Below are positions 1-60,240 of a stretch of 64,000 nt of DNA, in pieces. The stretch covers positions 5,495,888-5,559,887 of the forward strand of contig NC_092676.1 of assembly GCF_964355755.1 (NCBI RefSeq), in the 5' to 3' direction. Below the pieces are notes generated by a model that was not told the origin of the DNA, searched no databases, and saw only the letters and a program-made list of their open reading frames with translations. Made by a program: the position numbers and the translations under genes. Every line of letters starts with the position of its first letter. Position 1 is the first letter of the stretch. The stretch is from Antedon mediterranea (taxonomy: Eukaryota; Animalia; Echinodermata).

Positions 1-240
1 CTATATCTAATGTAACTAGACACACCCAGCCTCACTCTACCTATATCTAATGGAACTAGACATACCCAGCCTCACTCTACCTATATCTAATGTAACTAGA
101 CACACCCAGCCTCACTCTACCTATATCTAATTAAACTAGACACACCCAGCCTCACTCTACCTATATCTAATGAAACTAGACACACCCAGCCTCACTCTAC
201 CTATATCTAATGTAACTAGATACACCCAGCCTCACTCTAC
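1..240. repeat. 40-bp minisatellite, 6 copies (may continue upstream of the window)
   Basis: Unit ctatatctaatgtaactagacacacccagcctcactctac repeated at 40-bp period with few substitutions. Confidence 0.95.
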
Positions 241-581: not shown

Positions 582-3500
582 ATGTTCATCTTAAGAGGAA
601 TCATACTACTGTTTTATATTGCTATATTGATTGCATTGTTATTTTCTCGCTGTTTTAGTATCAGCTTCACTGACGTTAACGTTACCGATCGTGTCACCGA
701 TTCCGTTATCGATCATGTTGCCTACCCGGTTACCGAGACCAATCATGTTACCGATCATGATATGACCGATTCTGATATTGATCCTGTTACCTATACAGTT
801 ACCGATACCAATCCTGTTACGGATCCTGTCACTTTTCCGGTTGTCAAGACCAATCCTGTTACCCTTCCCGGTATGATTGCTTTACTTTTTAAATTTCATT
901 ATGAATTTATTAATTAAGAATATGCGTATACTATAACTATACAGTATTATCACTAAATTTGATGGACATGTTATATTGATGACGTAGCCTATCTTTGAAC
1001 CGTAGACGTTACTAAAAAAAAGAACGAAACTAAAGAACTGAAAACATCAAAAGCACTCTCTTGTACACTTTTAAATAACGTTTATTTTTACGTTGACTTT
1101 ACTGTACCTTAATTTGTTAGCCGATTAATTTTTATTGTAATTAATTGGACTTTCACAGCTAGACATGTCTGACTAAAGACTGAAGATTGCATTTGTAACA
1201 ATAAATATTTGTTTTAATGATATTTTCCCCTTTTTCCTTTCATGCCTACAACGGCGCAGATCCGTTTTTAATAGTGGGGGCGAGGGAGAGGACGTATACA
1301 AAATTAAATACTTCGCAATCGATTTCTGAGCACATAAAAATTGTCACGATTTTGTCTCTTTGTCTACGATCTATGTTGTATAATAATACTTTTATTTTTC
1401 GGTTTAATTTATGAGCATGTCAATGTGATACATTCTACGTGAAAAAGTCGAGCTAATGTTTTTGATTTGTCCGACCTTGAATGTAAAAAGTAAAAAAAAA
1501 TTAGGCCTAATGGTCGATGAACAAAGTTAATCGAACATGACACGCCACACAAACTTCATTTTTGCTACTCGGAGACTGCGGCAATTAACAAACTCATAGA
1601 ATAATAAATAAAGACGCATACAACATAAGTTCTGGCTTAAAGAGTTTAATTAGTAAATGAACATTCGCCCATGTAAAACTGCACATAAAGTTCATAAGCA
1701 AAGTTTTAAAGCAATAATTCTAAGTAAGCACAACAGGGATGCTCAGAGAAAAATAGCCCGCGGCAGGTGCCAAGGCACCGCCAAGAGCAGGCTTGGAAAT
1801 TTTAGATATGACAACATACAAGAAGTTCAAGTACTGTAAATGGTAACAACTGTATAATATAATTTATGTCTATAGCAATATCATAATCAACGTTATAAAA
1901 TTAAACTTTTTCGTTTTGATCTGGAGTAGACAAAACATTGCCTTTACAGTACGTTCCACCGTACCGCCGCATTCCGCAATCGCCCAGTTCGCGCTAATGC
2001 GGATTGAAGCGGCGCTAATGCGGATCGAAGCGGCACTAAACATGCCGAAACACAATACCGCAGGTAGATTCAAGGAGCCGCCGCCCGGAAGAATACAATC
2101 ATTAACAAAGTTTTTAGGCACTGGTCCTGATGGGCCACTGGTTATATTCACACAAAATCTATTCTTTTTAGGTATTCTATTTTCTGAAAATAATTTTCAA
2201 TAATTTAATGATTTTGCTGTTGAAAAGTGAAGGGACAATCCCCACTAAAAAATAAAGGGGGGAGGGGTGAGGGTACATCTCCCCTCGTACCCCCAGGATC
2301 TGCGCCGGTGCCTTCCTAACGTATCTCCGAATTGTCTTTTTCTTTACAAAAGCAGAATGTCCAGTCTACTGCTATTGTAAAGTGTTGCCTACTGCCGGTC
2401 ACAGAGTACGATGTAATCCTCCATTGAGTATTAATAACATCTCAACTATCAACAAGTATAATAATCTTGTTCCAATAACAGAATTGTAAGTATATGGTTA
2501 TTGTGAGGCTAACTATCTAACTATAAAATCTACAATATAACTTTAAAATATGTAATTGTTGTACATCATTATTATTAGTACCTTTGATTAAAATTCAATA
2601 CAAATTTGAAATAATAATAATAATTACCACCACACCAGGTCATCCACACCAATCATGATCACCTTTCTGTATTACTATTTGTGCAGCGAGAAAAACAAAA
2701 CGTAAATGTGCAGGTGTACTCATTTCATAATATAGTAACATGCACACAAATGCTAACAGTTTTTTTTCAGTCAGTAAGCCTATAAAGTTTTCAACAAGTT
2801 CTTAATGAAAAATGTTCAATATTTACCTAACAGCTTGAATATTGTAATTTTACTGTATTGTAGTTTTTACTTTGAGACAGAGGATCGTACATAACTACAA
2901 ATAATAAATACAAATTATATAATGTAAATACCTGATACTAGGGCTCACTTATATAAGATTCTGTCTCCACACGGAGTATTAAAGGTGTACAACAACGTTA
3001 ATACAACGTATCGCCTATTGTGCACAACTTTAATACCTGAACAGTGACTACAACAAACCGTAAATAGCCTAAATTACATATCAATTTATAAAGGTGCGAT
3101 GTACATACATAACACCTGGATCTTGATCATAATAATTTCGTTGTTTAATTTGTTTGAAAATAAACAATGTTTGGTAGTAAAAGTTGACATATCGAACAGC
3201 TTGAATATTGTAATGGCTACTGTACATTGTTTTTATTTTGAAGGAATTTGTACAATAACCAAATAAGTACATTGCCAGCCAATGTATTTGATAGATTGAC
3301 AGCACTGACAACACTGTAAGTATTTTGATTTGAAAGTTGAATGCTCAATGTTTACCAAACAGCTTGAATATTGTAATTTTACTGTATTGTAGCTTTCACT
3401 TTGAGAGGATTCGTACTAAAACCGAATAAGTATTTGATAGTAGTTTGACAGTATTAAACCTGTTGTTCTACATTTTAAACGCTGAAAAAACGACAGAAGA

Positions 3501-6500
3501 ATAGATTCTCTTTCTTGAGCTATACTCGTTCACTTTATTTCTATCCATCCGTTCATCCGGTAAACTAAAATACAAACAGAGAAACAATTGACACGGCGCA
3601 ATGAAGCATGTCCCTATCGTATACTATACGGCCTAACATACATAAATCGCCGTTAACATGGCATACTATCATCATTATGTCTATCAAACATAACTAACTA
3701 AAAAATAATTAATAAATAAAAATTGTATCATGTAAATACCTGATACTAGGGCTCACTTATATAAGATTCTGTTTCCACACGGAGTATTAAAGGTGTACAA
3801 CAACGTTAATACAACGTGTCGCCTATTGTGCACAACTTTAATACCTGAACAGTGACTACAACAAACCGTAAATAGCCTAATTTACATATCAAGGTATCAA
3901 GGTACGATGTACATACACAACACCTGTATCTTGATCATAATAATTTTGTTATTTAATTTGTTTGAAAATAAACAATGTTTGGTAGTAAAAGTTGACATAT
4001 CAAACTGCTTGAATATTGTAATGTTATTGTACATTGTTTTTACTTTGAAGGTATTTGTACAACAACCAAATGAGTACATTGCCAGCCAATGTATTTGATA
4101 GATTGACAGCACTGACAACACTGTAAGTATTTTGATCATATTAATTTTTTGTTTAATTTGGTTTAAAAATAAAAATTAAAAATAATGAATATAATAATGT
4201 ATATTATGCTTTGTATCATTTAATAAAACCACTTATAAGCATTAGTAAAATATTTAATATTAACAAATTATGATACCAAATATTTAGACTTTGCTTTAGA
4301 AATTATGTCTATGAGAATAGCACTTTCTTATTAGTACAATAAATTTTTGCCTAATTAAGTATACTCATCAGCATTCACTATGTTGATAATGTCCCTATCA
4401 TTGACTGAAATAATATAAAAATAATTTAAAATGTATAAAAAAAATAAAAATTGATGTATCGAACATCTTGAATATTGTAATTGTTACTGTACATTGTTTT
4501 TACTTTGAAGGGGTTTGAGTTATAACCAAATAAGTACATTGCCAGCCAATGTATTTGATAGATTGACAGCACTGACAACACTGTAAGTATTTTGATCATA
4601 TTAATTTTTTTGTTTAATTTGGTTTAAAAATAAAAATTAAAAATAATGAATATAATAATGTATATTATTCTTTGTATCATTTAATAAAACCTCTTATAAG
4701 AATTAGTAAAATATTTAATATTAACAAATTATGATACCAATTATTTAGACTTTGCTTTAGAAATTATGTCTATGAGAATAGCACTTTCTTATTAGTACAA
4801 TAAATTTTTGCCTAATTAAGTATACTCATCAGCATTCACTATGTTGATAATGTCCCTATCATTGACTGAAATAATATAAAAATAATTTAAAATGTATAAA
4901 AAAAATAAAAATTGATGTATCGAACATCTTGAATATTGTAATTGTTATTGTACATTGTTTTTACTTTGAAGGGGTTTGAGTTATAACCAAATAAGTACAT
5001 TGCCAGCCAATGTATTTGATAGATTGACAGCACTGACAACACTGTAAGTATTTTGATCATATTAATTTTTTTGTTTAATTTGGTTTAAAAATAAAAATTA
5101 AAAATAATGAATATAATAATGTATATTATTCTTTGTATCATTTAATAAAACCTCTTATAAGAATTAGTAAAATATTTAATATTAACAAATTATGATACCA
5201 ATTATTTAGACTTTGCTTTAGAAATTATATCTATGAGAATAGCACTTTCTTATTAATATAATTTATTTTTGCCTGATTAAAGTATACTCATCAGCATTTA
5301 CAATGTAATGTCCCTATCATTGACTGAAATACTATAAAAATAATTTAAAATGTATAAAAAAAATAAAAATTGATGTATCGAACACCTTGAATATTGTAAT
5401 TGTTACTGTACATTGATTTTACTTTGAAGGTATTTGGGGGTGGGGGAGTGGGAGGCCACGAAGGAACAAAATAAGTACATTGGCAGCCAATGTATTTGAT
5501 AGATTGACAGCACTGACAGAACTTTAATTATTCTTGCTCTTTTAATTTGTTTAATTAGTTATTAAAAATAATTAATAAAATAATGTATAATAATAAATAT
5601 TATACATTGTATCATTGTATAATGTAATCAATACATACAGAGTTTAAAAACCACTTAGCATTAGTAAAATATTCAATCATTAGGCCGATCAATAAATTAT
5701 TAAAAAAAATATTTAATACTGTTTTTCAGTCAGTACACCTATACAGTTTTCATCAATTTCTTAATGAAAAATGTGAATGTTCAATGTTTACCAAACAGCT
5801 TGAATATTGTAATTTTACTGTATTGTAGTTTTTACTTTGAGGGGATTCGTACAAAAACCGAATAAGTATTTGATAGTAGTTTGACAGTATTAAACCTGTT
5901 GTTCTGAAGTTTAAACGCTGAAAAAACGACAGAAGAATAGATTCTCTTTCTTGAGCTATACTCGTTCACTTTATTTCTATCCATCCGTTCATCCGGTAAA
6001 CTAAAATACAAACAGAGAAACAATTGACACGGCGCAATGAAGCATGTCCCTAACGTATACTATACGGCCTAACATACATAAATCGCCGTTAACATGGGCA
6101 TACTATCATCATTATGTATATCAAACATAACTAACTCAAAAATAATTAATAAATACAAATTATATAATGTAAGTACCTGATACTAGGGCTCACTTAACAA
6201 GATTATGTCTCCACACTGAGCATTAAAGGTGTACAACAACGTTAATACAACGTATCGCCTATTGTGTACAACTTTGATACCATGAACAGAGACTACAACA
6301 AACCGTAGCCTAAATTACTTATCAAGGTATAAAGGTGCGATGTACATACATAACACCTGGATCTTGATCATAATAATTGTGTTGTTTAATTTGTTTGAAA
6401 ATAAACAATGTTTGGTAGTAAAAGTTGACATATCGAACAGCTTGAATATTGTAATTGCTACTGTACATTGTTTTTACTTTGAAGGGATTTGGGCCGTGAC

Positions 6501-9500
6501 GAAATAAGTAAATTGCCAGCCAATGTATTTGATAGATTGACAGCACTGACAGAACTGTAAGTATTTTACTCATATTAATTTCTTTGTTTAATTTGGTTTA
6601 AAAATAAAAATTAAAAATAATGAATATCATAATGTATATTATGCTTTGTATCATTTAATAAAACCACTTATAAGAATTAGTAAAATATTTAATATTAACA
6701 AATTATGATACCAAATATTTAGAATTTTCTTTAGAAATTATGTCTATGAGAATAGCACTTTCTATTAATATAATTTATTTTTGCCTGATTAAAATATACT
6801 GATCAGCATTTACAATGTAATGTCCCTATCATTGACTTAAATACTATAAAAATAATTTAAAATGTATAAAAAAAATAAAAATTGATGTATCGAACATCTT
6901 GAATATTGTGTACAACTTTGATACCATGAACAGAGACTACAACAAACTGTAAATAGCCTAAATTACTTACCAAGGTATAAAGGTGCGATGTACATACATA
7001 ACACCTGGATCTTGATCATAATAATTATGTTGTTTAATTTGTTTGAAAATAAACAATGTTTGGTAGTAAAAGTTGACATATCGAACAGCTTCAATATTGT
7101 AATTGCTACTGTACATTGTTTTTACTTTGAAGGCATTTGTACGATAACCAAATAACTAAATTGCCAGCCAATGTATTTGATAGATTGACAGCACTGACAA
7201 CATTGTAAGTATTTTACTCATATTAATTTCTTTGTTTAATTTTGTTTAAAAATAAATAATAAAAATACTGAATATAATAATGTATATTATGCTTTGTATC
7301 ATTTAATAAAACCACTTATAAGCATTAGTAAAATATTTAATATTAACAAATTATGATACCAAATATTTAGAATTTTCTTTAGAAATTATATCAATGAGAA
7401 TAGCACTTTCTATTAATATAATTTATTTTTGCTTAATTAAAGTATACTGATCAGCATTTACTATAAAAATATTTCAAAATGTATATGAAAAATACAAGTT
7501 TACATATCAAACAGCTTGAATATTGTAATTTCTACTGTACATTGTTCTTACTTTGAAGGGTTTTGAGCGGGAACGACATCCGTACATTGCCAGCCAATGT
7601 ATTTGATAGATTGACAGCACTGAGAGAACTGTAAGTATTTAGATCATATAAATTTCTTTGTTTAATTTGGTTTAAAAATAAAAATTAAAATAATGAATAA
7701 AATAATGTATAGCACTGTAAGTATGCATTTCTTTGTTTAATTAGTTATTAAAAATAAATAATAAAATAATTTATAACAATAAATATTATACATTGTATTA
7801 TTTTGTAATGTAATCAATACATACAGATTTTAAAAACAACTTAGCGTTAGTAAAATATTTATTCATTATCAATACATTCATTTAATTAAAATATTATTAC
7901 TGTAATTGATAGTTTTTAAAGATATTTAATGATAGGCCTAATGGTAATAAATACACAAACATTTTCAAATATATTTTGTCTATAAATATTCCCTAATTAA
8001 AGTACTCATCAGTATTTACTATGTAGATAATTCATTGACTAAACGATTATAAAAAAATTAAATAATAATATAATATAATCAAGATGATGCTCATTTCTTT
8101 CACAAATGCTTTATGGAAATATATTATTAATGTTTATACCTTAACCGTATAATATAAGTTTGTTAATATTATACAGAGGTCTAAATTGTATGTTACTGTT
8201 GTACAAAAACAATAGGAGCTTAATTGTTTAAAGATCCATTATTCATTCATATGATTTATTCATGGTCAAAAAGAGTAAAATAAAGTATTTGAAATTATTT
8301 TCTATTGTTCAAAGTTAAAAATTCACAAACAAATATAAAAATAATTTAAATATTATTAATTAGTCTTAATTTAAACAGGTTAAAAATTATTATATTACTA
8401 AAAATATTAAGATGCACTGCACTCATTGTTAAAATATGCTATAGAAATTGTGTCTATGAGACTTTCCTATTTTAACATTATAAGTATCAAACAGCTTGAA
8501 TATTGACGTTTTACTCTACATGTTTTATACTTTGAAGGTACTTATTTGGTAACCAACTAAGTACATTGCCAACCAATGCCTTTAATGGTTTGACATCGTT
8601 GACAAAACTGTGAGTGTTTTTTGTATGTTTACAATAAAGTTGTTTATAATGTAGATCCAGCAGGGTAATCTATACATTTTACAAGGTGCCTTTTTGTCAT
8701 CTCAGGTATAGGCCTGTTAAGCCAACTCAGTCTGGGCCAAATCGGTTCGACAGACATGATTTTAAAGGCTGGACTAGTTTTGTATAGTCAGACCTGTTTT
8801 GGCCCTGGATCAACTTTGCGTTTTTGCGCAATTATGCATACTTACACTTCATTCACCACTGTACTGTTAAGCAGAATACATTTTACTTACCCGTTTTGGT
8901 ACTTTTTAAAATTATTTGTTCATCGCTATGTACATGTGGAAACTAAATACTTTTCAATAGTTGCAAATATTATCAAATTTGATCATGACAATTTATTAAG
9001 TTGATAATAATATAAAAACATTAGTTATATATAAATACAAATAAAAACAGACCATTATTAACATGGGTCCTAGTTAAAAGTAATACTTGCCTCATTAAAT
9101 TCAATATGAAAAATAAAGTTGATTTATCTATCAAACAGAATGGATATTTTAATTCACTTTCTATGCATTTTCTTTAAAGGATATTTCACTGTGAACAAGA
9201 TATTACCGGGGCTAGTTGCCAGTAAGTATTTTGTGCATACATTTATGAATTTTTCGATTAATATGTGACTATAATGTAAATATCCATGAAATTATTATAT
9301 CATACAGTTGTTTAAAATTCAATTCAATTGTGATATTGGTACTAATCAACTGTTAGCTTTCTCTAAAAGTTTGTATATTTTTATACCAATTTAAACACAG
9401 GGCTATAAATAATGTCACCAAAAAATAAACTTATAGATTTTGCACCCAAGCGCCACACTCTGCATCCGCCCCTGCCAATACATTGTTAGTATTATTTTTG

Positions 9501-12500
9501 TTAATAATAACAAATGATAATACAGTACAGTATGCAACAGGAATCGGATTATAAACATTGTCACGATATTTTAAATAATCATGTTTTTAGGATGTTCACT
9601 TAATTTGTATTTTTGATTGCAAAAATATAGTTTATAATTTACTTCATACTGTGCATTCTTTTTCAAGTGAAACAAATCAAATAAGTACATTGGAAGCCAA
9701 TGCATTTAATGGTTTGAAAGCATTGCAAAAGCTGTGAGTATTTGTTCTTTCAATTTGTTTTTACTGGTATACACACTTTTATTTCAGAATGTTTGTGAAA
9801 TAATTTTCCAGATCAAAAATACACTTTTATCATTCATCAACTTGGTGTAGTACTGTAAATCTCAGTTCTCCAAATATAAATCAGTCAATATTTGTTTTAT
9901 AATATACAGATACCTAATACATAGATTATAGTATGTGGCTTATTTTGTCTCATAAAACTTGCTTCATCCATTAACTCAAAGTAACCTACAGTACTTCAGT
10001 CATGTCTGTTTATCTTGTGCTCTTTGAATTATAAATGTAGTCAAATGGCCAATCTTAGCTGTTTTATAAATTGCAGTTACCTTTTATATACACACAGCAC
10101 CAGCAAAGTAACAGGCCTAGAAAACAAAACAAAACAAATTAAAAATAAAAGATCTTTTTTCCTGGAAGATTTATGAATTCTCAATTATGTTTATGTCCCA
10201 TAATGATAGTTGAACTATCATCTGCTTTTGACCAATCAGAAGACTTGAATCTTTGAATGTGATATATAATAAATAAATAAAATAAGCAGAAAATATATTT
10301 CTACATTCTTTCCTTCTTCGGAGTGACACAAGTGAAACCAATAGATTGTGATAATTTGATCTTGAGAATAGTTATTTAAAAGAAAAAAATCAATTTTGTA
10401 ATTATTTTATAATACTTTCATTGATTTACCTTGAAGGTGGTTGACCGATTTCAAGATAAGTACATTGCCAACCAATGCCTTTAATGGTTTGACATCGTTG
10501 AAAGAATTGTGAGTGTTTTTATGTTCATGTTTATACCGTAAAGTTTTCCATAATTTAGATTTAGCAGTGTTCAGCTAGCTTTTAAAAACATATTGTGCCC
10601 ATGAGGATAACTCTTTCCTTATTTTAACATATCAAACAGTTGAATTTTGAATTTTTACTGTACATGTTCTATACTTTAAAGGCGTTTAGATGGTAACCAA
10701 CTAAGTACATTGTCAACTAATGTCTTTAATGGTTTGACATCGTTGACAGAACTGTGAGTGTTTTTTCATGTTTACCATAAAGTTGTTTATAATGCACATC
10801 CAGTAGAGTAATCTATACATCTTTTTACCTTTTTTTAGTCGCGTGCAAACGTGACTCTACAGCTCACTATGTCAGTGGGTCAAATTTGAGTACGTGAAAG
10901 GCCTTTTGGGAGGTTCGTGTGATCTCCAGTTAGCCTATCATTTCCAAAATTACTGTAAAAATTATATTCATTGTCATTTAGGTAGTTGGTTATGGGATTA
11001 TAAATACAAAAAAGATACCTTTATTGTCAAATAATGTGCATCTGTTTATGGACGATGTATTTGTGTTTGACACTGCTTAAATTTAAAAGCATTCAGGCTT
11101 TTGACAATAATTTAAAGTTATATAAAAAAGAAAGTAGGAAGTGACAGTTTGGCTTCTGTAACTATAAATTTAAAATTACCAGGATTTTAACATTGTTAAT
11201 GGTTTCTGTAAATGTTTAGATATAGAAATTTGAACATATATTATAATTATGTCTAAATGGATGTGGAAATTGCATAATTTAACTTTTGAAAATTATTTAT
11301 AAGGTCTATTTCGTAGTGTCATCTCCATATACTTTCAGTACGTCTACTATCTACTTAGAAGCAGGAATGCTTATTTATTTTGAATGTCAATTATGTTGCA
11401 AATACAATGTATCCATTCATAAAGTGATTTTGTATTACTAACGGTAGTTATTTATTTTCAATAAAGCTAATATCTAATTTATCTTTTTTACAGGAATTTA
11501 GATAACAACATTATAACTACCATAGACCCAGATGCATTTTCTTCTGTTGCTTCATCACTTTCAATTTTGTAAGTTAACATTATGTTATTTTGCATGTCTA
11601 TAACACATACTTAGGCTTAAAAAAATGTTCCTTTGCTGTCATCCGCCCTCCCCTTAATTATCGAAAAAAAAAAATTAGAGACGGACAAAAAAGGAGTTAT
11701 TTTTTTCGTTGAGGGCGCTTACGCAATAAAATCTTTACTACTAGTTATCGATCCGTACCTGAGGATACTTGACTCCATTACAATTGCAATATAGTGCAAT
11801 GTGTATTTATTAAGAAATGCTAGTGTTAGTGGTTATTAAATATTAAATAATGAAGGAAAGGGTGAAACAAACATTAAGTTCTAGAAAAAAAGTTGATGAA
11901 TGGAAAACCACCTTACAGTTAAAAGATGATATTGTTGGCAACTCTGATAATTCTTGTACATTTGTGCTATGTTAACAATGTTTAACTTATTTTGAATTTG
12001 TTGTTTTTTAGAAAGCTAAGAGGCAACAAGTTACAGGTGTACAGAGATAGAACATTTCAGCAACTCATAGGCTTAAAAGAATTGTAAGTAATGATAGATC
12101 CCACACAATTTTACATAGTTTAGGTTCAAGACTGTGTTTCGGCTTAATATTAGTAAAAAGAGAAATATTTTGGCACATATAGCATTTCATAGGCATACTA
12201 GTTGAGCTTAAAACACCGACTGGTGGGCTGACATAAAAAAAGACAAGACTAACAGACTTTAGACAAGTCTAAATTTTACAGATACGTCTGTGTAAAGTAT
12301 GAATGTGATTTTCTGCAACTCCAGTGATTTATTAACTTAATAGGCATTTTGATAATGATGATATAGTTGGAGGTATAATTTTTGTTGATTATGTTTAATT
12401 AGAAATATCCTAATATTTCATTAAATTTCAATTAAACAGAATTAACTGAATAAGATAACTAAGTGATTCTGGTAAATATTTTATTTATATAAATTATTGG

Positions 12501-14450
12501 TATTTTTTTTATCTGTGTAATATTTTAATGATGAATTATATCAAACACATATCTTTAAATTAGTTGATTATTATCATTGATAAAGTGAAAAATTAGCAAG
12601 GACAAGTTTACTGATTTTATTTATTTTAAGATATGTTTTAAGCTCTGTCTATATACTATCAAACTGATTTGACGAAAAAGTGTGATTTGCCCAAATATGG
12701 TGGTGATATTCCCAAATATGGTAGTGATATTCCCAAATATGGTAGTGATATTCCCAAATATGGTAGTGATATTCCCAAATATGGTAGTGATATTCCCAAA
12801 TATGGTAGTGATATGACATCATCATGACCATATATGAGCATATCACATTTTTTGTCACATAAAGTTTGATACATGCAGACGGAGCTTTAAAATAGTCAGA
12901 TACCTTCTTGAAATACACAAATGCGCTACTAGATTTCTGTTTAAGTAACAAGAGCACCTGCTAAGTCCCGCCCGTATGAATTTTATAATTTTTTTGAACA
13001 TAAAAATCAAAAGAAATTAGAAAAGGTTTCATCTTAGAACTTAATAATAACAATTCACACTGTGTTGTTCAAGATCAATCAAATCACATCATGATCAGTA
13101 AGGGCAATTAATAACAATTTTATTTTTCTATTTGATTATAATTTTCACCAAAGAAAGTGTAAATATTGCCTTTAATTTTTAATGAGATACACCCAACTTA
13201 TACTTATTTTGCATTTATTTCCTTTTGTGTTTATTCATTCGTTAAATTAGTTTAGTTGCCAGCGGGTATTTCAAGAAACGCATTGAAGGGTAACATGTAA
13301 TTCTAATTTCTGAATGTTGGTACAGGACTATTTAAAACCTATCCCAAAATATAATAATAGTGTCCTTTAAGATACAACAAAAATAATAACTAAACAGTAA
13401 TTATTATGTTGCTTTATTTACTTTGACTCTTACAGGTACTCTGATTTCTCAAGTCTCTGTTGCCTCGTGGGCGCCATCGATGTCTGCGAGCCTTCAGATG
13501 CATTTTCATCGTGTGAAGACTTGCTAAAAAATGAACTTCTCCGTGTGTTGATGATGATTATCGGGTTATCTTCGGTCATTGGGAATGTTGTTGTTATCGT
13601 TTCACGAAAGTTTAAAAAGGATAATGATTCAGGTAACAATGTTAATAAGGTCCAAACCACACTAATTACTAATCTTGCCGTGTCTGACTTGCTAATGGCA
13701 GTCTACCTGATCATCATTGCGAGTGCGGATATACACTTTCGTGGACGGTACGCGACAGCTGCAAGGAATTGGAAGAGCAGTTTTCTTTGCAGCTTTGCCG
13801 GGGCAATTTCTACTATCTCTGGGCAATGCTCAGTGTTTACACTGATGCTGCTGAGTGTGGATAGAGCTATTAACATTGTTAATCCATTTAGTACGAAACG
13901 CCTCAATCGTACAAAATGTAGAATCATTATCGGCTTGGCATGGCTATTTTGGATTGTGCTGAGTTTTCTTCCAATAACAGATATTTCATATTTTGGGGAT
14001 AATTACTATGGCAAAGAGAGTGTGTGCCTCGCTCTGCCGCTGACAAAGAGTCATTGGCAAGGCTGGGAGTATGCAGTCGCCATGTTTGTTGTATTTAACA
14101 GCATCGGGTTCATTGTAATAACAGTGAGCTACCTCGTAATCTTCTTATCGGTAAAGAGATCGGGGGCCACTGTCAATAGACGACAGATGAGGAAGGAACA
14201 GTTGAAAATGGCGAGGAAACTAGGCTTAATAGTTTTCACAGATTTCTGTTGCTGGGGTCCGATTATAGTAATGGCAATTGGTTCTGAGATGGGTTGGATG
14301 ACGATTCCTGATGAAATATATGTTTGGGCAGCGACATTCATCATCCCCATCAACTCCGCAGTCAATCCTTATCTTTACACAATTGCTTATATGTTTAAGT
14401 GCAAAGTTCGTCAACCGGCAGTTGTACAGATTCCACTTAATACATTGTGA
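582..14450 (+). CDS. Leucine-rich-repeat-containing GPCR (GRL101/type-C LGR-like), 17 coding exons, about 802 aa
   Basis: Exons 582-870 (signal-peptide-like start plus T/D/V/P-rich stretch), 2356-2485 (LRRNT, CPVYCYC...RC), LRR exons 3244-3315, 4051-4122, 4511-4582, 4972-5043, 6485-6556, 7133-7204, 7559-7630, 8538-8609, 9180-9221, 9668-9733, 10437-10508, 10682-10753, 11494-11568, 12012-12083, and 13436-14450 (hinge LCC..C.PSDAFSSCEDLL plus 7TM). All introns GT-AG with compatible phases; total 2409 nt. The first exon and inclusion of every LRR exon are less certain than the 7TM exon. Confidence 0.85.
1249..2310. mobile_element. Non-autonomous DNA transposon with about 15-bp TIRs in GPCR intron 1
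   Basis: Ends caacggcgcagatcc ... ggatctgcgccggtg; no clean target-site duplication. Confidence 0.65.
3406..3461 (+). pseudogene. Decayed LRR exon copy (also about 5841-5897; fragment near 2880)
   Basis: Same upstream intron context (cagcttgaatattgtaat...actttga). Sequence ...ccgaataagtatttgatag...ttgacag lacks 17 nt between two GTA motifs relative to intact exons, and the donor is degenerate. Confidence 0.7.
5430..5523 (+). pseudogene. Inactivated LRR exon copy (pseudo-exon)
   Basis: Acceptor ttgaag is intact, but a G-rich insert adds a net 22 nt at the variable codons and the donor gtaagt is replaced by ttaatt. Confidence 0.85.
12640..12887. mobile_element. MITE family A; other full or partial copies near 23234-23373, 23929-24087, 34527-34681, 36000-36131, 41262-41409, 41614-41745, 48929-49071 and 55839-56002
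   Basis: TIR aagctctgtctacactatcaaact of about 24 bp, usually TA-flanked, with an internal 21-bp unit ccaaatatggtagtgatat(tc); nine copies seen. Confidence 0.9.
13436..14450 (+). CDS. Terminal exon of the LRR-GPCR: hinge plus rhodopsin-class 7TM domain
   Basis: Acceptor tacag ends at 13435. The ORF has seven hydrophobic segments and the motifs NLAVSD (TM2), SVDRA (TM3), VCLALP, FTDFCCWGP (TM6) and PINSAVNPYLY (TM7), typical of relaxin-receptor/GRL101-type LGRs. Confidence 0.97.
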
Positions 14451-20644: not shown

Positions 20645-23600
20645 ATGGGTGGCAAGCAGCGAACAAAAGGAAATGCACGGGTAAGTTTAAAATAATTGTA
20701 TTATATTCAAATCTACAAATCACTCACGGTTTAAAGGATTTTTCAACTTTTATTTGGAGACACTTTGGTACAATACAGTACAAAACAGGGGCAGATCCAA
20801 GGTTGGAGAGGTGCCAGCCGGCCCGGACCCCCCTAAATTTCACAAATTGTAATGCAAAAGATAGAACATCAAATTAAGCTCAGCCCTTCATCATTAATTA
20901 ATTAATTAAATCGATGCGATCAGTTGATACAGTTGGGCGGCTGCCGAGACTAAACAGCGTTTTAATCTGGCGGCTCGGCATTGTGTTTGTAGATTGGAGA
21001 ATGTTGTGTAATTGATACGTGACGTAACAACTCGCGAAACATGGTCAAATTACTGATATTTTTGCCTTTTTTTTGTGTTTATCCTTAAAATTCAGGAAAG
21101 TGACATAGTCTATCGTGTGCGTCCCATCAATAAACATCAGTGTGCCAAATGTGAACATGTACCGTTCAGTATTTTTGAAGGTGATACGTAAAATACGTAA
21201 TAATATATATATGTAGGCTGAGCATTTTTTGAACCCCATATCATCAATACTTGTCCAATAGCTTTTTGAATGTTAAAACTGTTGGTGTGCGCTGAAACAA
21301 ATTTACAATATTTAAACCATTGTTCGACCATCTGCGGTCATAATTTTTAAATTATTTTCTGAACGGAAAGGGGATTCCCCTACATAGCAACCACTGTGTT
21401 ACCACTTGTGACGTCACACACTGCACGCCTACCTCTTGATAATATATAGAGGGTGCTGTTGACCAAAAAAAAAACACTCACCTCTCGTTTTTTTAACTTC
21501 AGATGTTGGCATGTATGAAATGTTAAGAAATAAATAGCAGTTATCTGTTGATAACCAACTTCTATAAATAAAATTCCTATCAACCATTTTTTTTCCTCCT
21601 CAGCCTTCAAGCAGTGGAAGAGCAGCTGAATTATTAGAACGATCCAATCAAGGAACAGGTTTTGTAGGGTTTGGCACAATGTCAGGTGACCTGGGTTACG
21701 TGCCTACTGCTGTTGGTGCTGACGATTTTGATTCATGCCTTGACCCTGAAATTCGACTTGCTTTGCGTAAATTAACCAAACGGGACGCTATTACCAAGTT
21801 AAAGGTAAAGTGATTAACAACGTGAGTTGGTTTCCCGAATGATCGTAAAATCAAAACTCAATTCACTAATTTTACGGAACTTGGTCACCACCTATCCGAA
21901 GATCGGTTTTCCATTCCTCTTTCTTGCTCCGCCAATAGAGAATAGATATGAGTGCGTGGCCAAGCGGTTAAGACAGTGGTACCGTATTACCCTCCCTGCC
22001 ATATTAACATCTGCGACGATGGTTCGAGCCTTACCATGTCACCATGCCAATCCATACATGTAATTATGCATCCAAAATTTGAAATTAAATTACAAAAAAG
22101 TTGATCAAAAGTTTGTCTCATTTTTTTTTCTCATCCAGGCAATGCAAGAACTTGCAAGTCTATGCAAGGAGAAGGAGGAAGATTCTGTAGGAGGAATATT
22201 ACCTCACTGGCCTAGACTATACAGCAAACTGGCATTGGTAACAATGTTAATGTTATTAAGTCATTTTTTCATTGCTTTTCATTCTAAATTACTATTATCT
22301 CCCAAAATTTGCAGTAAAGCAAAATTGAAAAGCTAATTTATTTTTTTAAACATAACGCACAATGTACTGATTTCACAGCAAATGTATGATTTTTTATATA
22401 TAAACACAACAGGCACAGAATAAATTCTAAAACCACCTAGTGAAACACTGAAATTTAATTAATTTGAAACGATAAAGGCAAAGAAATCTGTAAGAATGAG
22501 AAAATATCTATTTATATATAGTGCCGTCTATTTCAATGATTGGTGTTACGATTAAAAAGAAAACATTATATCACCCTCTATTGTTTGATCACACTTTCAT
22601 AAAATGTTCAATTCTCTTCAATTTTGACCTTATCTGCAAAGACATCTGTATTCTACAGTCCAGATATCTGGTAACATAAAATTTCACAACATGAGAAAAT
22701 AAGTTTGTGATAGAAAGGTAGAATCAATAAAAAAAAATGTATATTTAGAATTTTTATTGGAAACCAATAAATAAAACAAAATTAATATTTAATTATTTTT
22801 ATTTACAGGATTATGATAAAAGAGTTCGTGAAGCAACCCAGTACGCATTTGAACAGATTTGTTTAAGGGTTGGACGAAAGTTAGCACCTCATTTGCGCTC
22901 TTTAATGGGCGTTTGGATCGTATCGCAATGTGACACGTACGCCCCAGCATCCTCTGCGGCCAAGTCGGCATTTCAAAAAGCATTTTCAACTGTGAAGCAG
23001 AGAGAAGCAGTCGCCTATTGCAAAGCAGAAGTTTTGGAGGTAAACAATAGTAATAATAAATAAATATTTCTGAAAATAATATATAAATATGATAAATAAT
23101 TTTCTTTTATTATTTTATTCCATATTGATATTACAACAATTAGTAGTATGATGTACTAGATAATATCTTTTCCTATAGACAGGTGTCGTTGACCTCGCTA
23201 TGACCTGAATGTGTGACGTTTAAACATGGCTATTGCTCTGTCTGCACTATCAAAGTTGTTTGACAAAAAAAGTGTGCCCAAATATGGTAGTGATATTCTT
23301 AAATATGGTAGTGATATGATATGGGCACATCACATTTTTTTATCACATAAAGTTTGATAGTGCAGACAGAGCTTTAGAATCCCCCTTTTAAAAACAAAAT
23401 TGGCTAAAAAAAAACAAGTTTATTGGACAATTACTTAAATTAGGTAATTAGAGGACAGCAGATAAATAGATGCTGAAATTTACTTAAATTATTAGTTTGT
23501 TAAACAATATCTAATAATATAAAATGAACTACAATTACTGCATTATTTATGCCAACTCTTTGTTTAAAATCACAGCATCTTCAGGATAACCTTTTTAACC

Positions 23601-35600: not shown

Positions 35601-38600
35601 TATTTGTGTCATATAATGGAAATGATTTGATTTCTTTAGGAACTTGTTTAAACTTGGTTCCCACTAGCGACGCAACCTTTACGCAACATAAGAAGATTCC
35701 CGTCCAATAATCATTCTTTCCCCCACCTGTGTGGAATCAAACCAGCGATATTTGCAGCACTGTTGCGTCGTCGGTTCCCACTTGTGATTACGCAATACAA
35801 CACTTTGTGTCAATAGGTCGTTGCGTTACTAGTGGGAACCACACTTTAGATAAATTGACTGCTTTTTTTTGTGTAAGTTTTGTTATCTACATTAAACTTT
35901 CCAAAAAATGTTTTTATCAAACCAGGGAAGAGTTAAATTTAATTTAATTTAACTCTTCCCTGATGTAACATTTGTAGACAAGAAGGAGACACACCATCAA
36001 ATGTCAACGTTTTTGTGACAAAAAAATATGATGTGGCCATATATGGACATGATAATGTCATATCACTACCATATTTGGGTACATCACATTACTTTTTTTG
36101 TCAAACTAGTTTGATAGTGTGGACAGAGTTTTAGACAAGGATTTTATATTTCAAATTGCTTTTTTTTAAACATTTTGCAGAACTGTTTTCTGGTCTCAGC
36201 TTCAGAAGATGTGCTCTTAAAAGTGTTCCAAATTAGCTGTCTGAAAGGGGATGATTTGTCTGGTATATAATTCATTTTGTGTTATTTGATTTCTCATATT
36301 TAAGATGTATTGCCCACAAAAGCATGGACAAAAATGAATATTAATTTAAACAAATTTTAAATAGGAAAATTTGCAGTTTTAATTATTTTAACCACTTCCG
36401 TAGAAAAAAAGATTAAAACATTTTGTTTTCACTTATAAAAAGAGAAAATAAATGGTTAAAAATCTAACTGAAAAACCATTGACTCCAGTCAATTTGACTA
36501 TTTTTGCATTTTATTACAGTTTTTTCAGGTACTTTTTTTTTTTTTATCCATTTTATTTTTAAATCTATATTAAAAATATGTGACATCTGCACCCCAATGA
36601 TTATGATAATATTGATTTTAAAAAAACATTGCAGAGTATAATGTATAATGCTCAGTAATGGTTGTCGTATTTCTAACTTTCTGAATTTCATAATTTATTT
36701 GATTTGATAGGTGATTTGATGGAGAAAGTTCAAAATACATGGATGTATGGAATCACATCTTTAGTTGAAAATAAAAAGTACTTCTCAAATGCCCAAAACT
36801 TTCTACACAAGCTCGCAGGGTGGATAAAAGTTAATCTCATGAAATCTTCATCGCTAGTAGACAGGTAATGTTAGTCATACAAAATAAGCTTACTACCTCC
36901 AAATAAAGACCAATTTAATGTCCAGGATTTTAGTTGTTTTATCAACGGGTAATGTTTACACTATAGAATAAGCTTACTATTTCCAAATAAAGACCAGCTA
37001 GTGCTTTAGTTGTTTTTGGACAGGTAAAGTTTACACTATAAAATAGTCTTACTACCTCCAAATAAAGACCAGTTTAAAGCTAGTGTTTTGGTTTTTGGAC
37101 AGGAAATTGTTGCAATATGCAATGCACTTTCAATGTAGACGCACTATGAAATACACTTACTACCTCCAAATAAAGACCATGTTTAGAATAAGGGTTTTAC
37201 TGGTTTCATGTGCTAAAAAAAAAAAAATAGAAACTCTGGGTTTTTTTATGGTTTTTTCTTGGACCACACCGCATATTGTGAGTGCCACCGATTCAATAAA
37301 TAAATAAACAATATTTCTCTTTTTGGCACTATTCCAATTAAATCTCAAAAGTAAAATAAAGATCTTCTTTAGATCTACTACAATAGCCAATGCAACCAGT
37401 CTTGTTTATCAAGTTCTTAACGAGAACATAAACCAGGATTGTGAAGACATACAGATGACTGGTGGTGAGTTCTTGCAGCTTATACTGCCAACTAAAGAAG
37501 AATGGAATGGTTGTAGAAGAAGTCTTCCTCTTCAGGTATGGCAATAATGTCATTTAAAAATGTTTTTTTTTGTCATTTATGGGCTTGTCCTACTTTTATT
37601 TAAAATATATCTCTCTATATAAACATCACAGGCACAGAATATGTATATTCTGATGTATTATTAAAATTAAAAGACTGTATCTGATTAAAATTGTGAAAAA
37701 CTAAAATGATCAGCATTTTTGTGCTATGTTCGATTTTAACTCAATATTACCGTCTCACAGTGGAAAGAAAATTTGACAATGCAAGGAGATTTGATGCTAA
37801 TAAACGCCAACGAAAAACTACCAGAAACATTCCAAGATGATGTCCCAAACCAAATTATGCTGTCCGTATTCCTGGCAACACTTTTAACCATTCAGCCGCA
37901 GCTAGAAGAGGACAACGTACTGGAATATGAGGAAGTACGCGTTGACAGAATTCCGTCAAAGAAAGATGCAGATGAAACAATTAGTAAAGAAAGATCTGAA
38001 AGTAAATTGCCAGAACAAGAGACTCTTTCAAAAGAAGATTCAGAAGCAGTTACTGCTGGAGAGTCTTCTGGAAATGTACAGCCAAAGAAAGATGTCAGTG
38101 AAAGAGAAGATCCTATTTCTGCAGAGTCTTCCAACAATGGGCAGTCTTCTGACAATAGAGAGTCTTCTGACAATGTACAGCCAAAGAACGATGTCAGTGA
38201 AAGAGAAGATGCTATTTCTGCAGAGTCTTCTAACAATGGGCAGTCTTCTGACAATGGAGAGTCTTCTGACAATGTACAGCCAAAAAATGAAAGAGAAGAT
38301 GCTATTTCTGCAGAGTCTTCTAAAAGTATGCTTCCTTGGAATTTTGACAAAATGGAAGATTACATACTAGAAGTTGTCTACTCAATGCAGTGGAGTTTGG
38401 CTATAAGCAATAGTGAACAACTGGTTTGTATATTCCTTCAGGATAGTATCAATTTTAATCCATTTTTTTCTGTTGAGGATTTGAGTCGTTTTGAGCAAAC
38501 TGTCTAGATATACTCTTTAAATTATAGAAGTTATATGATGTAATGGTATACAAATAATGAAGGTTTATGAATGCGATAGTGCAGATAATTTCATGAGGTG

Positions 38601-44600: not shown

Positions 44601-47600
44601 GGCTCAATATGCAAATTTCTTCAGGCAGAGTGGTCTTGTTGATAGTCTGCTGATTAACCTGTTCAGACTAATGCCAATTGTGCCACTCCTCTCTGATAAA
44701 GACGCTAAAAGTCCCTTTAAAGGAGTGCAACCCAGCATGTTCACACAGGAACCAGCATTGGAAATTAAAGGTATTTATTTTATAATCGTAAATTATAAGT
44801 ACCATTTTTTTAGCAAGATAAAGTGACTTGCCAGATCTGAAACTGGTACCTTATTTCACTAGGCAAGTCTTTCAGTGTAGCTAGGAAATTAATGCCATAT
44901 GATATATTTTTAATGTGATGGATATGTGTCACTGTATCAAGGAACTTTCCTAAAGATATTGATAAATTAAAGATACACTACAAAGAATCTGGTGCTTTTA
45001 CTAACATTTTGTTCAAGCATGATTGTGGTAACCAAAAAGCACCATGGTGATGTTATTATTGTTCTCTACCAATTATCATTTTGTTTACAGGTTGTGGTAG
45101 CAGTCCAATAGAATTACAGCACCATGGTGATGTTTGCACCATCTTTCTCAACTAATTCCTTTGTTTGTATTACAGGTTGTGGTAGCAGTCCAATAGAACC
45201 ACAACACCTGGCGTGTAGTGTATACAACAACACACTAGAGGATCTGCCTGCAATGGTTAGACAATGGTGGAATAGTCAAAATAAAAGGATAAAAGAACAT
45301 ATAGACAGGTATGGGATGGGAAAAAAAAATATTTAAAGCCAGTTTATGACAATACATCACATTATTGTAACAGTAATAATCCCCATTTAAAATTCTCCTA
45401 TTCAGAGAACACCCCTTTTTAAGAATCCTTTAATTTAAAACGGACAAGGGTCAATTTATATTTTAACACTACAGCCAACCCCTATTAAAGATGTATTATC
45501 CCCCTGAAAAATATTTTTTTTTTTCATTTTTTGTTGTTGAATATTTCAATTTAATGTCACAAAAATTGGATCTAAACAAAATTTATTTATCTCAAAAAAA
45601 ATATAATTTAAAGTAAAAAATTGTCAAATTGGCTGCCAGCCAATGAATTTTTGGTTTGATTTAACCATTTATTATGTTATTATTTTTTTTCTATGGAAGT
45701 GATTAACTTTATTAAAACTACAAAATGACCTATTCAAAGTCTGATTTAATTAATCTTCATTTTTCATGTTTTTGGGGGACAATACATTTACATACACTTT
45801 AAGGAGTTTGTTTGATCCTGAAAGTCTTCCCTTAATAGAAGTTCTACTCTACTTGGAGATGTTTAAAAAGAATACTGATTAATTCTTCAGGTTAAAATTT
45901 TTGATGGTGTTGATTTCTATAACACTTTTCAGATTCACTACCAAGTTTACAAGCCCCATTCTCTGTGCAAAAGAAATACAAGGTGTTCAAAAGTCCACCA
46001 CAAAGATGGACAACATGACCATAAAGGCACGGTCAAAGACACGAGAGGTCATCGCAACTTACCGAATGGATGACATGTCAATGGATTTGGTCATCAAACT
46101 GGCCGTCAACCACCCCCTAGGGGTGATCGTCGTAGACAGTGGCAAACGGGTGGGCGTGTCGGCCGCACAGTGGCGGAACTGGATGCTACAAATGACTACC
46201 TTCCTTGTTCATCAGGTAATGGTATAATATTAACAGAAGATATACTGTAACTAGTTTTATAGTATAAAGTACTTATTCGAATAAGACAAGTACTTGTTCA
46301 ACATGAGTACTTGTTCAACCTGAGTACTTATTTGACACAAGTACTTATTCAATCCAAGTACTTAATCAACCCAAGTTTAAAAATTATAATGTAACTAGTT
46401 TTAGTGTAAAGTACTAAATAAGACACTTATTTAAGTACTTGTTCAACGAAAATACATTCAACCCAAGTACTTTTTCAACCCAAGTGCTAATATGTAACCT
46501 ACTGTAAGTACATAGTTGCCCTTAGAAAGTACTTATTCAACTTAAATACTTATTCAACCCAAGTATTTATTTGACCCAAGTACTTATTTGACTTAAGTGC
46601 TTATTTAAATTTCATACTTATTCGACTAACTTAAGAAAGTAGTTATTCAACTTTAGTACTGTACTTATTCAATCCAAGTACTTATTCAACCCAAGTACTT
46701 ATTCAACCCAAGTACCTATTTGGTCTTGAGTAGTGTTCTGACTTATTTGTTTTAAGTACTTATTTGACAGAGGTGCTTATACAGCACCGACTTATCCATT
46801 TACAGTACTGTACTGTATGTCTAATTATTCCTTTGTCAATTAAAAATAATTAATTCTATAAATGTGATAAGGAAATTACATTGTGTATAATTTTAGTCTT
46901 TAGTAATAAGAATCTGGGTCATTTCAAAATATTATATTAATATCATAATTATAAAGAAAAGTACAAACAGTGATTTCATAATCGTCTATTTCAGAAAGCA
47001 ATAAAGCGCACAAATTGGATTCTAAATTTATGTAATAAGTTTTTATATTATTATGCCTAATGGGATTTTTCATTTGATAAGAAAATTTAATTATTGATTT
47101 CTATAAATCTGTCTTTGTAATAAGTAATTAATTAGATGTACATTGAATATTTGCAGAATGGAACGATAGTTGACGGTTTGAAGGTATGGAAAAGTAACAT
47201 TGATAAACGGTTTGAGGGGACGGATGATTGTATGATATGTTACTCGGTAATACACGGATCTAATTACTCGCTGCCTCAACTTACGTGCAAAACCTGTAAA
47301 AAGAAATTCCATTCTGCTTGTCTGGTAGGATATTTTTATATTTCTTGTACGACAACAGAATAAAATATGATAATAAGATGATGAAAAAATTATGACATCA
47401 GCATTATGATATCAGCATAAAATTATGACATCAGAATTATGAAATCAGCATTATAGCATCAGTAATGACATCAGCATTATGACATCAGTATAAAATTATG
47501 ACATCAGCATAAACTGTGACATCAGCATAAAAAAAATGTGATAGAAAATTTTAACAGCAAAAATGAGGATATCAGCATAAAATGTGACATCAGCATAAAC

Positions 47601-59581: not shown

Positions 59582-60240
59582 GTAAGTACAACCTAGCTTA
59601 GCAGGTATTTTACATTCTACCATTGTAGTCTGAAATGCTTTCTTGCTACCCATGGTACGACTAAGTGTCCGTTTTCTCTCTTACAAGAGGGCCTAGGCTA
59701 GGCTGTAGTAAGCTAGCTAGGCCCAGCTGTAACAGTATTGGAATAATTTCATCAGGCACCCAACAGCTTGTCCAGTATACCTGGATCTAGGCCCAGCACA
59801 CAAGGTCAATGGACTAAAAGAATAGTGACTTGCAGTTTCTGACTCGCCTATTGTAAAGTTAATGACGTGAAGACTTAAGCAGGGAGGAACTGGGCCCCAT
59901 TTATTCATTTGTTTATAGATATAAATTATTAAAGCAAATAATCTTTTTTAATTTTAGATTTTAAATTGATAATTTAGGCCTAGAGAGGCCAGGAGGCCCT
60001 AGCTAGCTAGAGGCCAAGTAGGTAGATTAATTGTTTGGAAAATGTCCACTTGTGTATTATGTAGATAGTGTTATCAATAAACCTCAATCTATAGTATAGT
60101 CAGAGTGCAAAGATATATTTTCAACTTACATTATTCTGCCATTTCTTTTATTTTAATTTTTTCCTACACATTGTAATGTATGTTTGTTAATGAAATGATA
60201 ATAAATATATTTTTTCCCTCAATTTTCTTAAGGTATTTAC

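What the first reader, a model, noticed from the sequence alone, without database searches (positions are those of the whole stretch)
3244..7630. VLR-like array of variable LRR exon cassettes feeding a 7TM receptor
Seen: seven intact 72-nt, phase-2/phase-2 exons share an identical 38-nt core (attgccagccaatgtatttgatagattgacagcactga, encoding LPANVFDRLTAL) and closely similar flanking introns. Their variable ends differ strongly: NLYNNQIST, YLYNNQMST, GLSYNQIST (twice), DLGRDEISK, HLYDNQITK, VLSGNDIRT, with tails TT/TE/RE, and many changes are multi-base codon replacements. Established: these are the x positions of LxxLxLxxNxL on the concave ligand-binding face, and the 24-aa consensus resembles agnathan VLR modules. 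Inference: diversifying selection on a recently amplified ligand-binding surface. Because the exons are symmetric, skipping, unequal crossover or gene conversion could produce combinatorial ectodomains, making this a candidate variable immune or chemosensory GPCR system rather than a hormone receptor.
Basis: partly seen in the sequence, partly recalled or inferred. Interest (0 to 1): 0.85.

Follow-up and report, generated by a model that had tools for sequence, protein, structure and literature searches.

The report
Feather-star receptor with shuffled binding repeats
A receptor gene, likely from a feather star, holds seven young, near-identical repeat exons whose predicted binding-face codons have changed about four times faster than the introns beside them, so it is likely one of a fast-evolving family of sensors for foreign molecules, varied by inherited shuffling and probably not rebuilt in each cell like lamprey antibodies.

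Summary
Seven intact 72-nt phase-2 LRR exons share an exact 38-nt core. They lie in a predicted 789-aa gene: signal peptide, Thr-rich spacer, LRR cap, 13 one-repeat exons and one 7TM exon. The array also holds a dead eighth copy and three relics.

The 7TM is 85-88% identical to nine Antedon mediterranea GRL101-like proteins and falls in a crinoid clade that lacks LDLa repeats, apart from canonical GRL101.

The six concave x codons carry at least 17 amino-acid changes on 14.3 sites, against 0.28 changes per intron column (about 4-fold, p about 1e-4 to 1e-5). Other exon codons run at half the intron rate. Contigs of four public runs put 16 of 30 listed exon variants in codons 1, 3 and 4. The copies look like mosaics, so patch conversion probably helps; silent changes at x codons are raised too, which weakens a pure-selection reading.

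It is not a VLR: the germline gene is complete and there is no evidence of somatic assembly. It works like brown-algal ROCO exon shuffling, here on a GPCR. Immune versus chemosensory role, isoforms and allelic exon number are untested. New variant of a known kind; interest 0.62.

The parts
582..870 (+). Predicted first coding exon: Met, hydrophobic signal-like segment, Thr/Ser/Pro-rich spacer with imperfect 42/69-nt repeats; phase-1 donor
   Evidence: ORF; hydropathy peak 3.3 at residue 7 and 35% T+S+P in residues 32-96; repeats; in frame with next exon; no Pfam hit
2353..2485 (+). Predicted LRR N-terminal cap exon (CPxxCxC...C), phase 1 to phase 2
   Evidence: AG/GT and in frame; weak tblastn match to the cap of P0002, E 0.30; no Pfam hit
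2877..2900 (+). Relic: exon acceptor region plus a few exon-like bases (approximate ends)
   Evidence: (family D9); not found by the profile
3244..3315 (+). Young LRR exon E1 (NLYNNQIST...TT)
3392..3452 (+). Decayed LRR exon relic
   Evidence: (E 0.052)
4051..4122 (+). Young LRR exon E2 (YLYNNQMST...TT)
4511..4582 (+). Young LRR exon E3 (GLSYNQIST...TT)
4972..5043 (+). Young LRR exon E4, identical to E3; flanking introns differ at 8 of 471 columns
5430..5523 (+). Dead LRR exon: the 6 nt of codons 3-4 are replaced by a 28-nt G-rich stretch (5437-5464), frame shifted, donor GT lost
   Evidence: the insert has no second match in the window
5827..5887 (+). Decayed LRR exon relic, copy of the one at 3392
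   Evidence: E 5e-4; family D10
6485..6556 (+). Young LRR exon E6 (DLGRDEISK...TE)
7133..7204 (+). Young LRR exon E7 (HLYDNQITK...TT); second unit of a 648-nt tandem duplication with E6
7559..7630 (+). Young LRR exon E8 (VLSGNDIRT...RE)
8538..8609 (+). Older LRR exon E9
9668..9733 (+). Older LRR exon E10, 66 nt, in frame but two codons short; use uncertain
10437..10508 (+). Older LRR exon E11
10682..10753 (+). Older LRR exon E12
11494..11568 (+). Penultimate LRR exon (75 nt), conserved in Antedon relatives
   Evidence: 72% to P0179 residues 309-333
12012..12083 (+). Last LRR exon, conserved in Antedon relatives
   Evidence: 83% to P0179 residues 334-357
13436..14450 (+). Single exon for the cysteine hinge and rhodopsin-class 7TM domain, to the stop codon
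   Evidence: Pfam 7tm_1 E 1.8e-33; homologues

Best explanation
The seven exons are recently duplicated single-repeat LRR exons of a predicted GRL101-derived G-protein-coupled receptor, whose predicted concave-face codons differ about four times more than the flanking introns, likely because selection favours new binding surfaces for a changing foreign ligand. Shown: the exon array, dead copies, rate excess, site patterns no single tree fits, and a multi-gene family in Antedon. Inferred mechanism: unequal crossover between similar introns adds or removes whole exons without breaking frame (all are phase 2/2); short conversion tracts between copies, within the gene and probably from paralogues, move variable codons around; the convex scaffold stays uniform within a gene; selection keeps new residues on and just after the beta-strand. 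Each gene or allele would thus encode one inherited binding surface on a conserved 7TM signalling module. The ligand is most likely a non-self macromolecule (microbe, parasite or symbiont); this last step is the least certain.
For: Rate: at least 17 amino-acid changes on 14.3 sites at the six x codons (fixed beforehand by the LxxLxLxxNxL pattern) against 13/47 upstream and 42/152 downstream intron columns; ratios 4.3 and 4.1, p 9e-5 and 2e-5; other codons 0.47 of the intron rate; x-codon replacement rate against all silent exon sites 4.7, p 0.002. Sister copies E6/E7 differ at 15 of 447 intron columns but 8 of 18 x-codon bases (p 3e-7); 16 of 21 pairs (not independent) show the excess at p<0.05. 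Other individuals: contigs of 4 runs laid on E1 list 30 exon variants, 16 in codons 1, 3 and 4 (p 1e-5). Turnover: dead exon and relics; a 648-nt duplication joined at a short shared word; 41 of 190 informative site pairs fail the four-gamete test; contig joints in run X5 show other arrangements, including a 557-nt back-jump around E9. Structure: in the model of relative P0179 (mean pLDDT 81) each strand is formed by the residues of codon 23, the split Leu and codon 1, with codons 3-4 just after. Analogy: sea-urchin TLRs are under positive selection mainly on the concave strands (PMC3367398, passages); a 12-gene GRL101-like cluster lies in a snail schistosome-resistance region (PMC12297450, passages).
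Against: Silent changes at x codons are also high (3 on 3.7 sites, 0.8 per site, against 1.19 for replacements), so within those codons dN/dS is only about 1.4; imported codons or a local break hotspot could give part of the signal. Only 7 copies of 23 codons. Five of 21 pairs show no excess, and E3 and E4 are identical. The empty core is not itself significant (P about 0.08 for no silent change). In older arrays the x positions are only modestly more variable than other surface positions (P0004 1.83 vs 1.62 bits; P0066 2.69 vs 2.12). No tissue expression, ligand or infection data. Expanded GRL101-like genes of apple snails are highly expressed in tentacles and palps (PMC6573481, passage), which favours a chemosensory role. 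The spliced model is conceptual.
Confidence: 0.52

Rival explanations
1. Same germline shuffling and selection, but the family serves chemosensation or mate/gamete recognition: receptors on podia or gametes that bind variable protein cues.
For: Apple-snail GRL101 expansions (29-132 genes) are highly expressed in tentacles and palps; GRL101-like genes are enriched in starfish sensory tentacles and triton tentacles. The signalling module is a rhodopsin-class 7TM.
Against: Those papers, in the passages read, report gene-number expansion, not repeat-by-repeat change of the concave face. Fast turnover of a binding face is more typical of host-parasite conflict (general knowledge).
Confidence: 0.25
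2. No positive selection at this locus: neutral duplication and conversion homogenise introns and core, while x codons are merely unconstrained or are copied in as patches from older, diverged paralogues, or sit at a local mutation hotspot.
For: Raised silent rate at x codons; four-gamete conflicts between x codons and flanks, e.g. E6+E8 by exon but E6+E7 by flanks; the dead exon has its insertion exactly at codons 3-4; many donor-like exon variants in the runs.
Against: Relaxed constraint alone cannot exceed the intron rate fourfold. The Leu codon between codons 1 and 3 is unchanged in all 7 copies, and the third base of codon 1 is invariant while its first base shows all four letters, which a plain hotspot does not predict. 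The donor pool is itself most varied at the same codons.
Confidence: 0.12
3. A VLR-like or Dscam-like system: exons are picked combinatorially by splicing, or exchanged somatically between family members, so that cells differ in their receptor.
For: All cassettes are symmetric; the repeat's best PDB matches are VLR-like; joined exon-exon contigs in run X9 (guessed RNA) include a young-type exon joined straight to a penultimate-type exon. Brown-algal ROCO LRR exons are alternatively spliced (abstract).
Against: The germline gene is complete; no orphan or inverted cassettes elsewhere in the window; listed variants show no C-to-T excess (1 of 22 places in X3). The X9 join is equally explained by a paralogue with a short array, as P0182 appears to have.
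Confidence: 0.06
4. The array is an assembly artefact or part of a decaying pseudogene, or the gene is an ordinary hormone receptor.
For: No contig spans the array; E3 and E4 units are 98% alike; one dead exon, three relics and a short E10.
Against: The units differ too much and in too nested a way for false duplication; the model is open for 789 codons; A. mediterranea P0179 has its own block of young repeats; canonical GRL101 is a separate clade and is reported single-copy in crinoids (passages).
Confidence: 0.05

Closest known systems
GRL101 / type C2 LGRs and GRL101-like expansions (Lymnaea GRL101; apple snails; Biomphalaria sudanica SudRes2 cluster)
   Same: 7TM and hinge homology (40-45% to LDLa-bearing GRL101-like proteins outside crinoids, 55-62% to crinoid ones); lineage-specific multi-gene expansion; proposed sensory or immune roles.
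   Different: No LDLa repeats found (tblastn with four LDLa-rich proteins); outside the canonical GRL101 clade; diversity lies in the number and concave residues of LRR exons, which the passages read do not describe.
Brown-algal ROCO LRR-GTPases (Ectocarpus; PMC3341825, PMC11378527)
   Same: One 72-nt exon per 24-aa LRR, dead LRR exons in introns, recombination within and between genes, diversifying selection, candidate immune role.
   Different: Unrelated protein: there an intracellular ROC-COR GTPase, here a surface GPCR of an animal. No inverted intronic exons here. Alternative splicing is reported there, untested here.
Agnathan variable lymphocyte receptors (VLRA/B/C)
   Same: 24-aa repeat with a fixed LPxxVFDxLTxL back and variable concave positions; VLRs and VLR-like designed proteins are the top PDB matches of exon E1.
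   Different: VLR loci are incomplete in the germline and assembled somatically by CDA1/2 (passages). This gene is complete, spliced and ends in a 7TM domain.
Sea-urchin Toll-like receptor families (PMC3367398)
   Same: Echinoderm germline multigene family with positive selection mainly on concave LRR strands and a conserved signalling domain.
   Different: TIR rather than 7TM output; variation is reported between genes, not between freshly duplicated single-repeat exons within a gene.
Relaxin receptor RXFP1 and LGR4/5, FSHR/LHCGR/TSHR
   Same: Best solved sequence match of relative P0179 is RXFP1 (E 1e-88); best fold matches are LGR4 and glycoprotein-hormone receptors. One-LRR-per-exon structure is general in LGR genes (recalled, not from a call).
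   Different: Those are conserved receptors for fixed hormones; here repeat number and binding-face residues turn over between sister species and paralogues.

Membership tests
LGR (LRR-containing rhodopsin-class GPCR), type C-related | Rhodopsin-class 7TM domain | tested here: met
   Pfam 7tm_1 E 1.8e-33, above the curated cut-off
LGR (LRR-containing rhodopsin-class GPCR), type C-related | LRR ectodomain in frame with hinge and 7TM | tested here: met
   Conceptual splice model open for 789 codons; same architecture in RefSeq relatives. No transcript of this locus seen.
Canonical GRL101 (type C2 LGR) | Multiple N-terminal LDLa repeats | tested here: not met
   tblastn of P0002, P0003, P0006, P0027 against the window gave no LDLa hit at E<1; my LDLa regular expression failed its positive controls and is not counted
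Canonical GRL101 (type C2 LGR) | 7TM groups with Lymnaea GRL101-like and the echinoderm orthologues | tested here: not met
   The window gene sits in a 14-row crinoid clade (100/99) inside a 17-row crinoid clade; the Antedon P0027/Asterias/Lytechinus/Lymnaea group is separate (85/87, drawn open)
Agnathan VLR | 24-aa variable LRR modules with concave hypervariability | tested here: met
Agnathan VLR | Incomplete germline gene with flanking donor cassettes | tested here: not met
   Complete in-frame model; no cassette outside the gene in 64 kb apart from one noise-level hit, E 0.087; whole genome not held
Agnathan VLR | LRRCT-stalk end without a signalling domain (recalled) | tested here: not met
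   The gene ends in a 7TM exon
Agnathan VLR | Somatic, deaminase-driven assembly and clonal expression | not testable with these tools
   Only contigs were available; no C-to-T excess among listed variants
ROCO-type LRR exon shuffling (works-like test) | One LRR per 72-nt symmetric exon with dead copies in introns | tested here: met
ROCO-type LRR exon shuffling (works-like test) | Recombination among exons and diversifying selection on exposed residues | tested here: met
   41 of 190 site pairs incompatible; fourfold excess over introns, with the silent-rate caveat
ROCO-type LRR exon shuffling (works-like test) | Alternative splicing of LRR exons | tested here: inconclusive
   Joined exon-exon contigs in run X9 cannot be assigned to one gene
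ROCO family (membership) | ROC-COR GTPase domain | tested here: not met
   The signalling exon matches only 7tm_1

The most novel reading that the evidence does not exclude
Feather stars have a GPCR-coupled variable receptor system: a dispersed family of genes acts as a shared pool of symmetric LRR cassettes, and alternative splicing or somatic patch exchange aimed at codons 3-4 gives single cells different binding surfaces, a VLR-like repertoire evolved independently in an echinoderm and wired to G-protein signalling.
Probability: 0.08. Interest if true: 0.93.

Novelty: new variant of a known kind. Interest (0 to 1): 0.62.

Why it matters
LGRs are usually treated as conserved hormone receptors, and expanded GRL101-like genes have been linked to smell or parasite resistance mainly through gene counts, expression or mapping. 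Here one receptor shows, exon by exon, a binding face changing about four times faster than its own introns on a uniform scaffold. That points to a GPCR family acting as a variable recognition repertoire in crinoids, with what looks like a separate repeat amplification in brittle stars. Several RefSeq models of the family begin inside or after the LRR array, so the repertoire is probably under-annotated. It makes the immune-versus-chemosensory question about GRL101-like genes directly testable with defined cassettes. Ten full-text searches listed no paper describing this family or LRR exon shuffling in a GPCR; the library lacks most subscription journals.

Tried and rejected
No whole genome is held for the window, so paralogues and orphan cassettes could not be counted in its own assembly. 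No RNA holder was listed on record; this says nothing on expression. Run X9 is only guessed to be RNA, and one contig of X3 also shows a back-jump of exon period, so joined forms are a hint, not proof, of transcription. No contig spans the array, so exon number per haplotype and assembly correctness were not tested. Depth: summed contig depth would imply at least 24-65 exon copies, and 7TM contigs are several times deeper than intron contigs, but the tool states that depth is no copy number; used only as a weak hint. I first read gapped 7TM contigs as frameshifted pseudogenes, then dropped this: the gaps fit an intact P0059-like paralogue with a one-codon deletion and a divergent patch. The ungapped upstream count (30 of 60 columns) is inflated by a 1-nt gap in E2 and was replaced. 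My LDLa pattern found nothing in positive controls and is not used. The G-rich insert has no source in the window. Earlier-findings look-ups returned nothing. The brittle-star genome paper has no mention of GRL101, GPCR or leucine-rich in its main text; the cephalopod GPCR paper was not relevant; one search was unproductive. No complex was predicted (no candidate ligand). No supplements were read; those of the snail and brittle-star papers could list such genes.
Full report
1. Observation. The 38-nt core is present exactly seven times and once with a mismatch, against none in 100 shuffles. The seven exons are 72 nt, AG/GT-bounded, phase 2/2, and read as stated. Variation is confined to the first 27 and last 7 bases; the core has none.

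2. The gene. Joining predicted exons in a script gives an open frame of 789 codons: signal-like segment and Thr-rich spacer (582-870), cysteine cap (2353-2485), seven young and six older LRR exons, and one hinge-plus-7TM exon (13436-14450). The model is conceptual, and E10 is two codons short. No LDLa repeat was found by tblastn with four LDLa-rich relatives. The next gene downstream is listerin, so this receptor is not in a tandem cluster on that side; only 581 nt upstream are in view.

3. Relatives. The best hits are crinoid GRL101-like proteins. Eight more distant Antedon members lie on these and four further chromosomes; many models start inside or after the LRR array, so their lack of LDLa is not certain one by one. 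A tree of 45 rows (the window gene plus 44 proteins that I chose from the 175 listed at that point) places the gene in a 14-row crinoid clade without LDLa (100/99), nested among LDLa-bearing crinoid genes (17 rows, 100/99) and apart from the canonical GRL101 group. Brittle-star receptors with 17-27 detected repeats (P0037, P0048) form a separate clade and vary at the same positions, which suggests independent amplification; the root is midpoint only and long branches were flagged. In A. mediterranea P0179 the young N-terminal repeats share a different back (LQANAFAGLTAL), so homogenisation appears to act gene by gene. The best solved sequence match of P0179 is RXFP1, and its model matches LGR4 and hormone receptors.

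4. Is the binding face changing too fast? The x codons were fixed beforehand by the LRR pattern (22, 23, 1, 3, 4, 6). In the P0179 model the strand is codon 23, the split Leu and codon 1, with codons 3-4 directly after. A tree-free minimum count gives 17 replacements on 14.3 sites, against 13 of 47 upstream intron columns (7 copies) and, for six copies, 16 replacements against 42 of 152 downstream columns: ratios 4.3 and 4.1, p 9e-5 and 2e-5. Other codons run at 0.47 of the intron rate. The downstream figure is inflated by misaligned E8 sequence, which makes that test conservative; the upstream stretch may be partly constrained by splicing, which works the other way. Pairwise, 16 of 21 pairs show the excess. 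The clearest is E6/E7, two units of one 648-nt duplication: 15 of 447 intron columns differ, but 8 of 18 x-codon bases. E1/E2, E1/E4, E1/E7, E2/E7 and E3/E4 show no significant excess. In contigs from four runs laid on E1 (371, 380, 39 and 13 contigs), 16 of 30 listed exon variants fall in codons 1, 3 and 4, with all three alternative letters at the first two bases of codon 3. Against a pure-selection reading, silent changes at x codons are also frequent (3 on 3.7 sites), and the sample is small.

5. How the array turns over. Intron blocks recur in nested, mixed order. The E6-E7 intron switches from one block type to another at a short shared word. Forty-one of 190 informative site pairs fail the four-gamete test; E6 groups with E8 by exon codons but with E7 by flanks, which points to short conversion tracts or parallel change. 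Contig joints in run X5 show other arrangements, including a 557-nt back-jump around E9 and skips over parts of the young array; they may be alleles or paralogues. Run X9, guessed to be RNA, holds exon-to-exon joined contigs, one linking a young-type exon directly to a penultimate-type exon (xLYNNAITTID); this suggests that family members are spliced, not that this locus is, nor that exons are skipped. In the dead exon, exactly the six bases of codons 3-4 are replaced by a 28-nt G-rich stretch with no match elsewhere in the window. It is one case and unexplained.

6. Mechanism. Shown: symmetric single-repeat exons, birth and death of copies, site conflicts, a fourfold excess at x codons, a multi-gene family with a conserved 7TM. 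Inferred: unequal crossover and patch conversion in the germline make new arrays; selection keeps new concave residues; the receptor signals through G proteins on binding an outside macromolecule. I put non-self recognition ahead of chemosensation (0.52 against 0.25) because fast change of a concave LRR face is the pattern reported for sea-urchin TLRs and algal ROCO genes and a GRL101-like cluster maps to snail parasite resistance. Tentacle expression of GRL101-like genes in snails and starfish argues the other way.

7. Comparison. It works like Ectocarpus ROCO exon shuffling but is not a ROCO. It resembles VLR modules in sequence but fails the VLR tests of an incomplete germline gene and of the C-terminal end; somatic assembly could not be tested. 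It is an LGR related to type C, but not canonical GRL101. That one-LRR-per-exon structure is general in LGR genes is recalled, not from a call; symmetric exons alone are therefore no evidence of a shuffling system.

8. Papers seen. Passages: PMC12297450, PMC6267866, bioRxiv 10.1101/2021.04.15.440029, PMC6573481, PMC4503460, PMC13428168, PMC4079206, PMC11310086, PMC13403566, PMC6408891, PMC3367398. Abstract plus section 15 and part 1 of section 24: PMC3341825. Abstract only: PMC11378527. No supplements were read. Ten searches listed no description of this crinoid family or of LRR exon shuffling in a GPCR.

9. Verdict. A real and well-supported feature. Each ingredient is known elsewhere; their combination in an animal GPCR family appears undescribed. 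New variant of a known kind, interest 0.62. The bold reading, a cell-level repertoire, is not excluded but has little support (0.08).

Noticed in passing
window 5437-5464: A 28-nt G-rich stretch replaces exactly the most variable six bases (codons 3-4) in the dead exon; no source in the window. It could mark break repair at the variable patch.
   Followed up: partly
window about 20640-46230, + strand: Multi-exon listerin (LTN1) E3 ligase gene: weak Ltn1 N-terminal hit at 22749-23060 and UBC-like hit at 45883-46224; one large exon holds a 99-nt coding tandem repeat at 38059-38320.
   Followed up: partly
window about 52900-58800, - strand: Arrestin-domain gene pieces (Arrestin_C hit at 53347-53688).
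   Followed up: partly
window 60232-60558, + strand: Glutaredoxin exon.
   Followed up: partly
window 1-240: Six or more copies of a 40-nt unit just upstream of the receptor's predicted first coding exon; it may run on beyond the window.
   Followed up: no
window 12650-12870; similar units at 23968, 41302, 48966, 55913: A 21-nt unit repeat family with very high contig depth in all four runs laid, probably a small abundant mobile element, sitting in the last intron.
   Followed up: no
P0037, P0048 (Amphiura filiformis): Brittle-star GRL101-like receptors with 17 and 27 detected LRRs; P0048 has a long run of near-identical repeats that vary mainly at the same x positions, in a clade separate from the crinoid genes.
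   Followed up: partly
P0001, P0176, P0179 (Antedon mediterranea): Block duplications of several repeats at once (a three-repeat block twice in P0001), and two proteins nearly identical except for their N-terminal repeats.
   Followed up: partly
run X10 laid on window 3195-3332: A run coded as a third organism holds 13 contigs alike to exon E1 and its acceptor flank, varying at the same codons.
   Followed up: no
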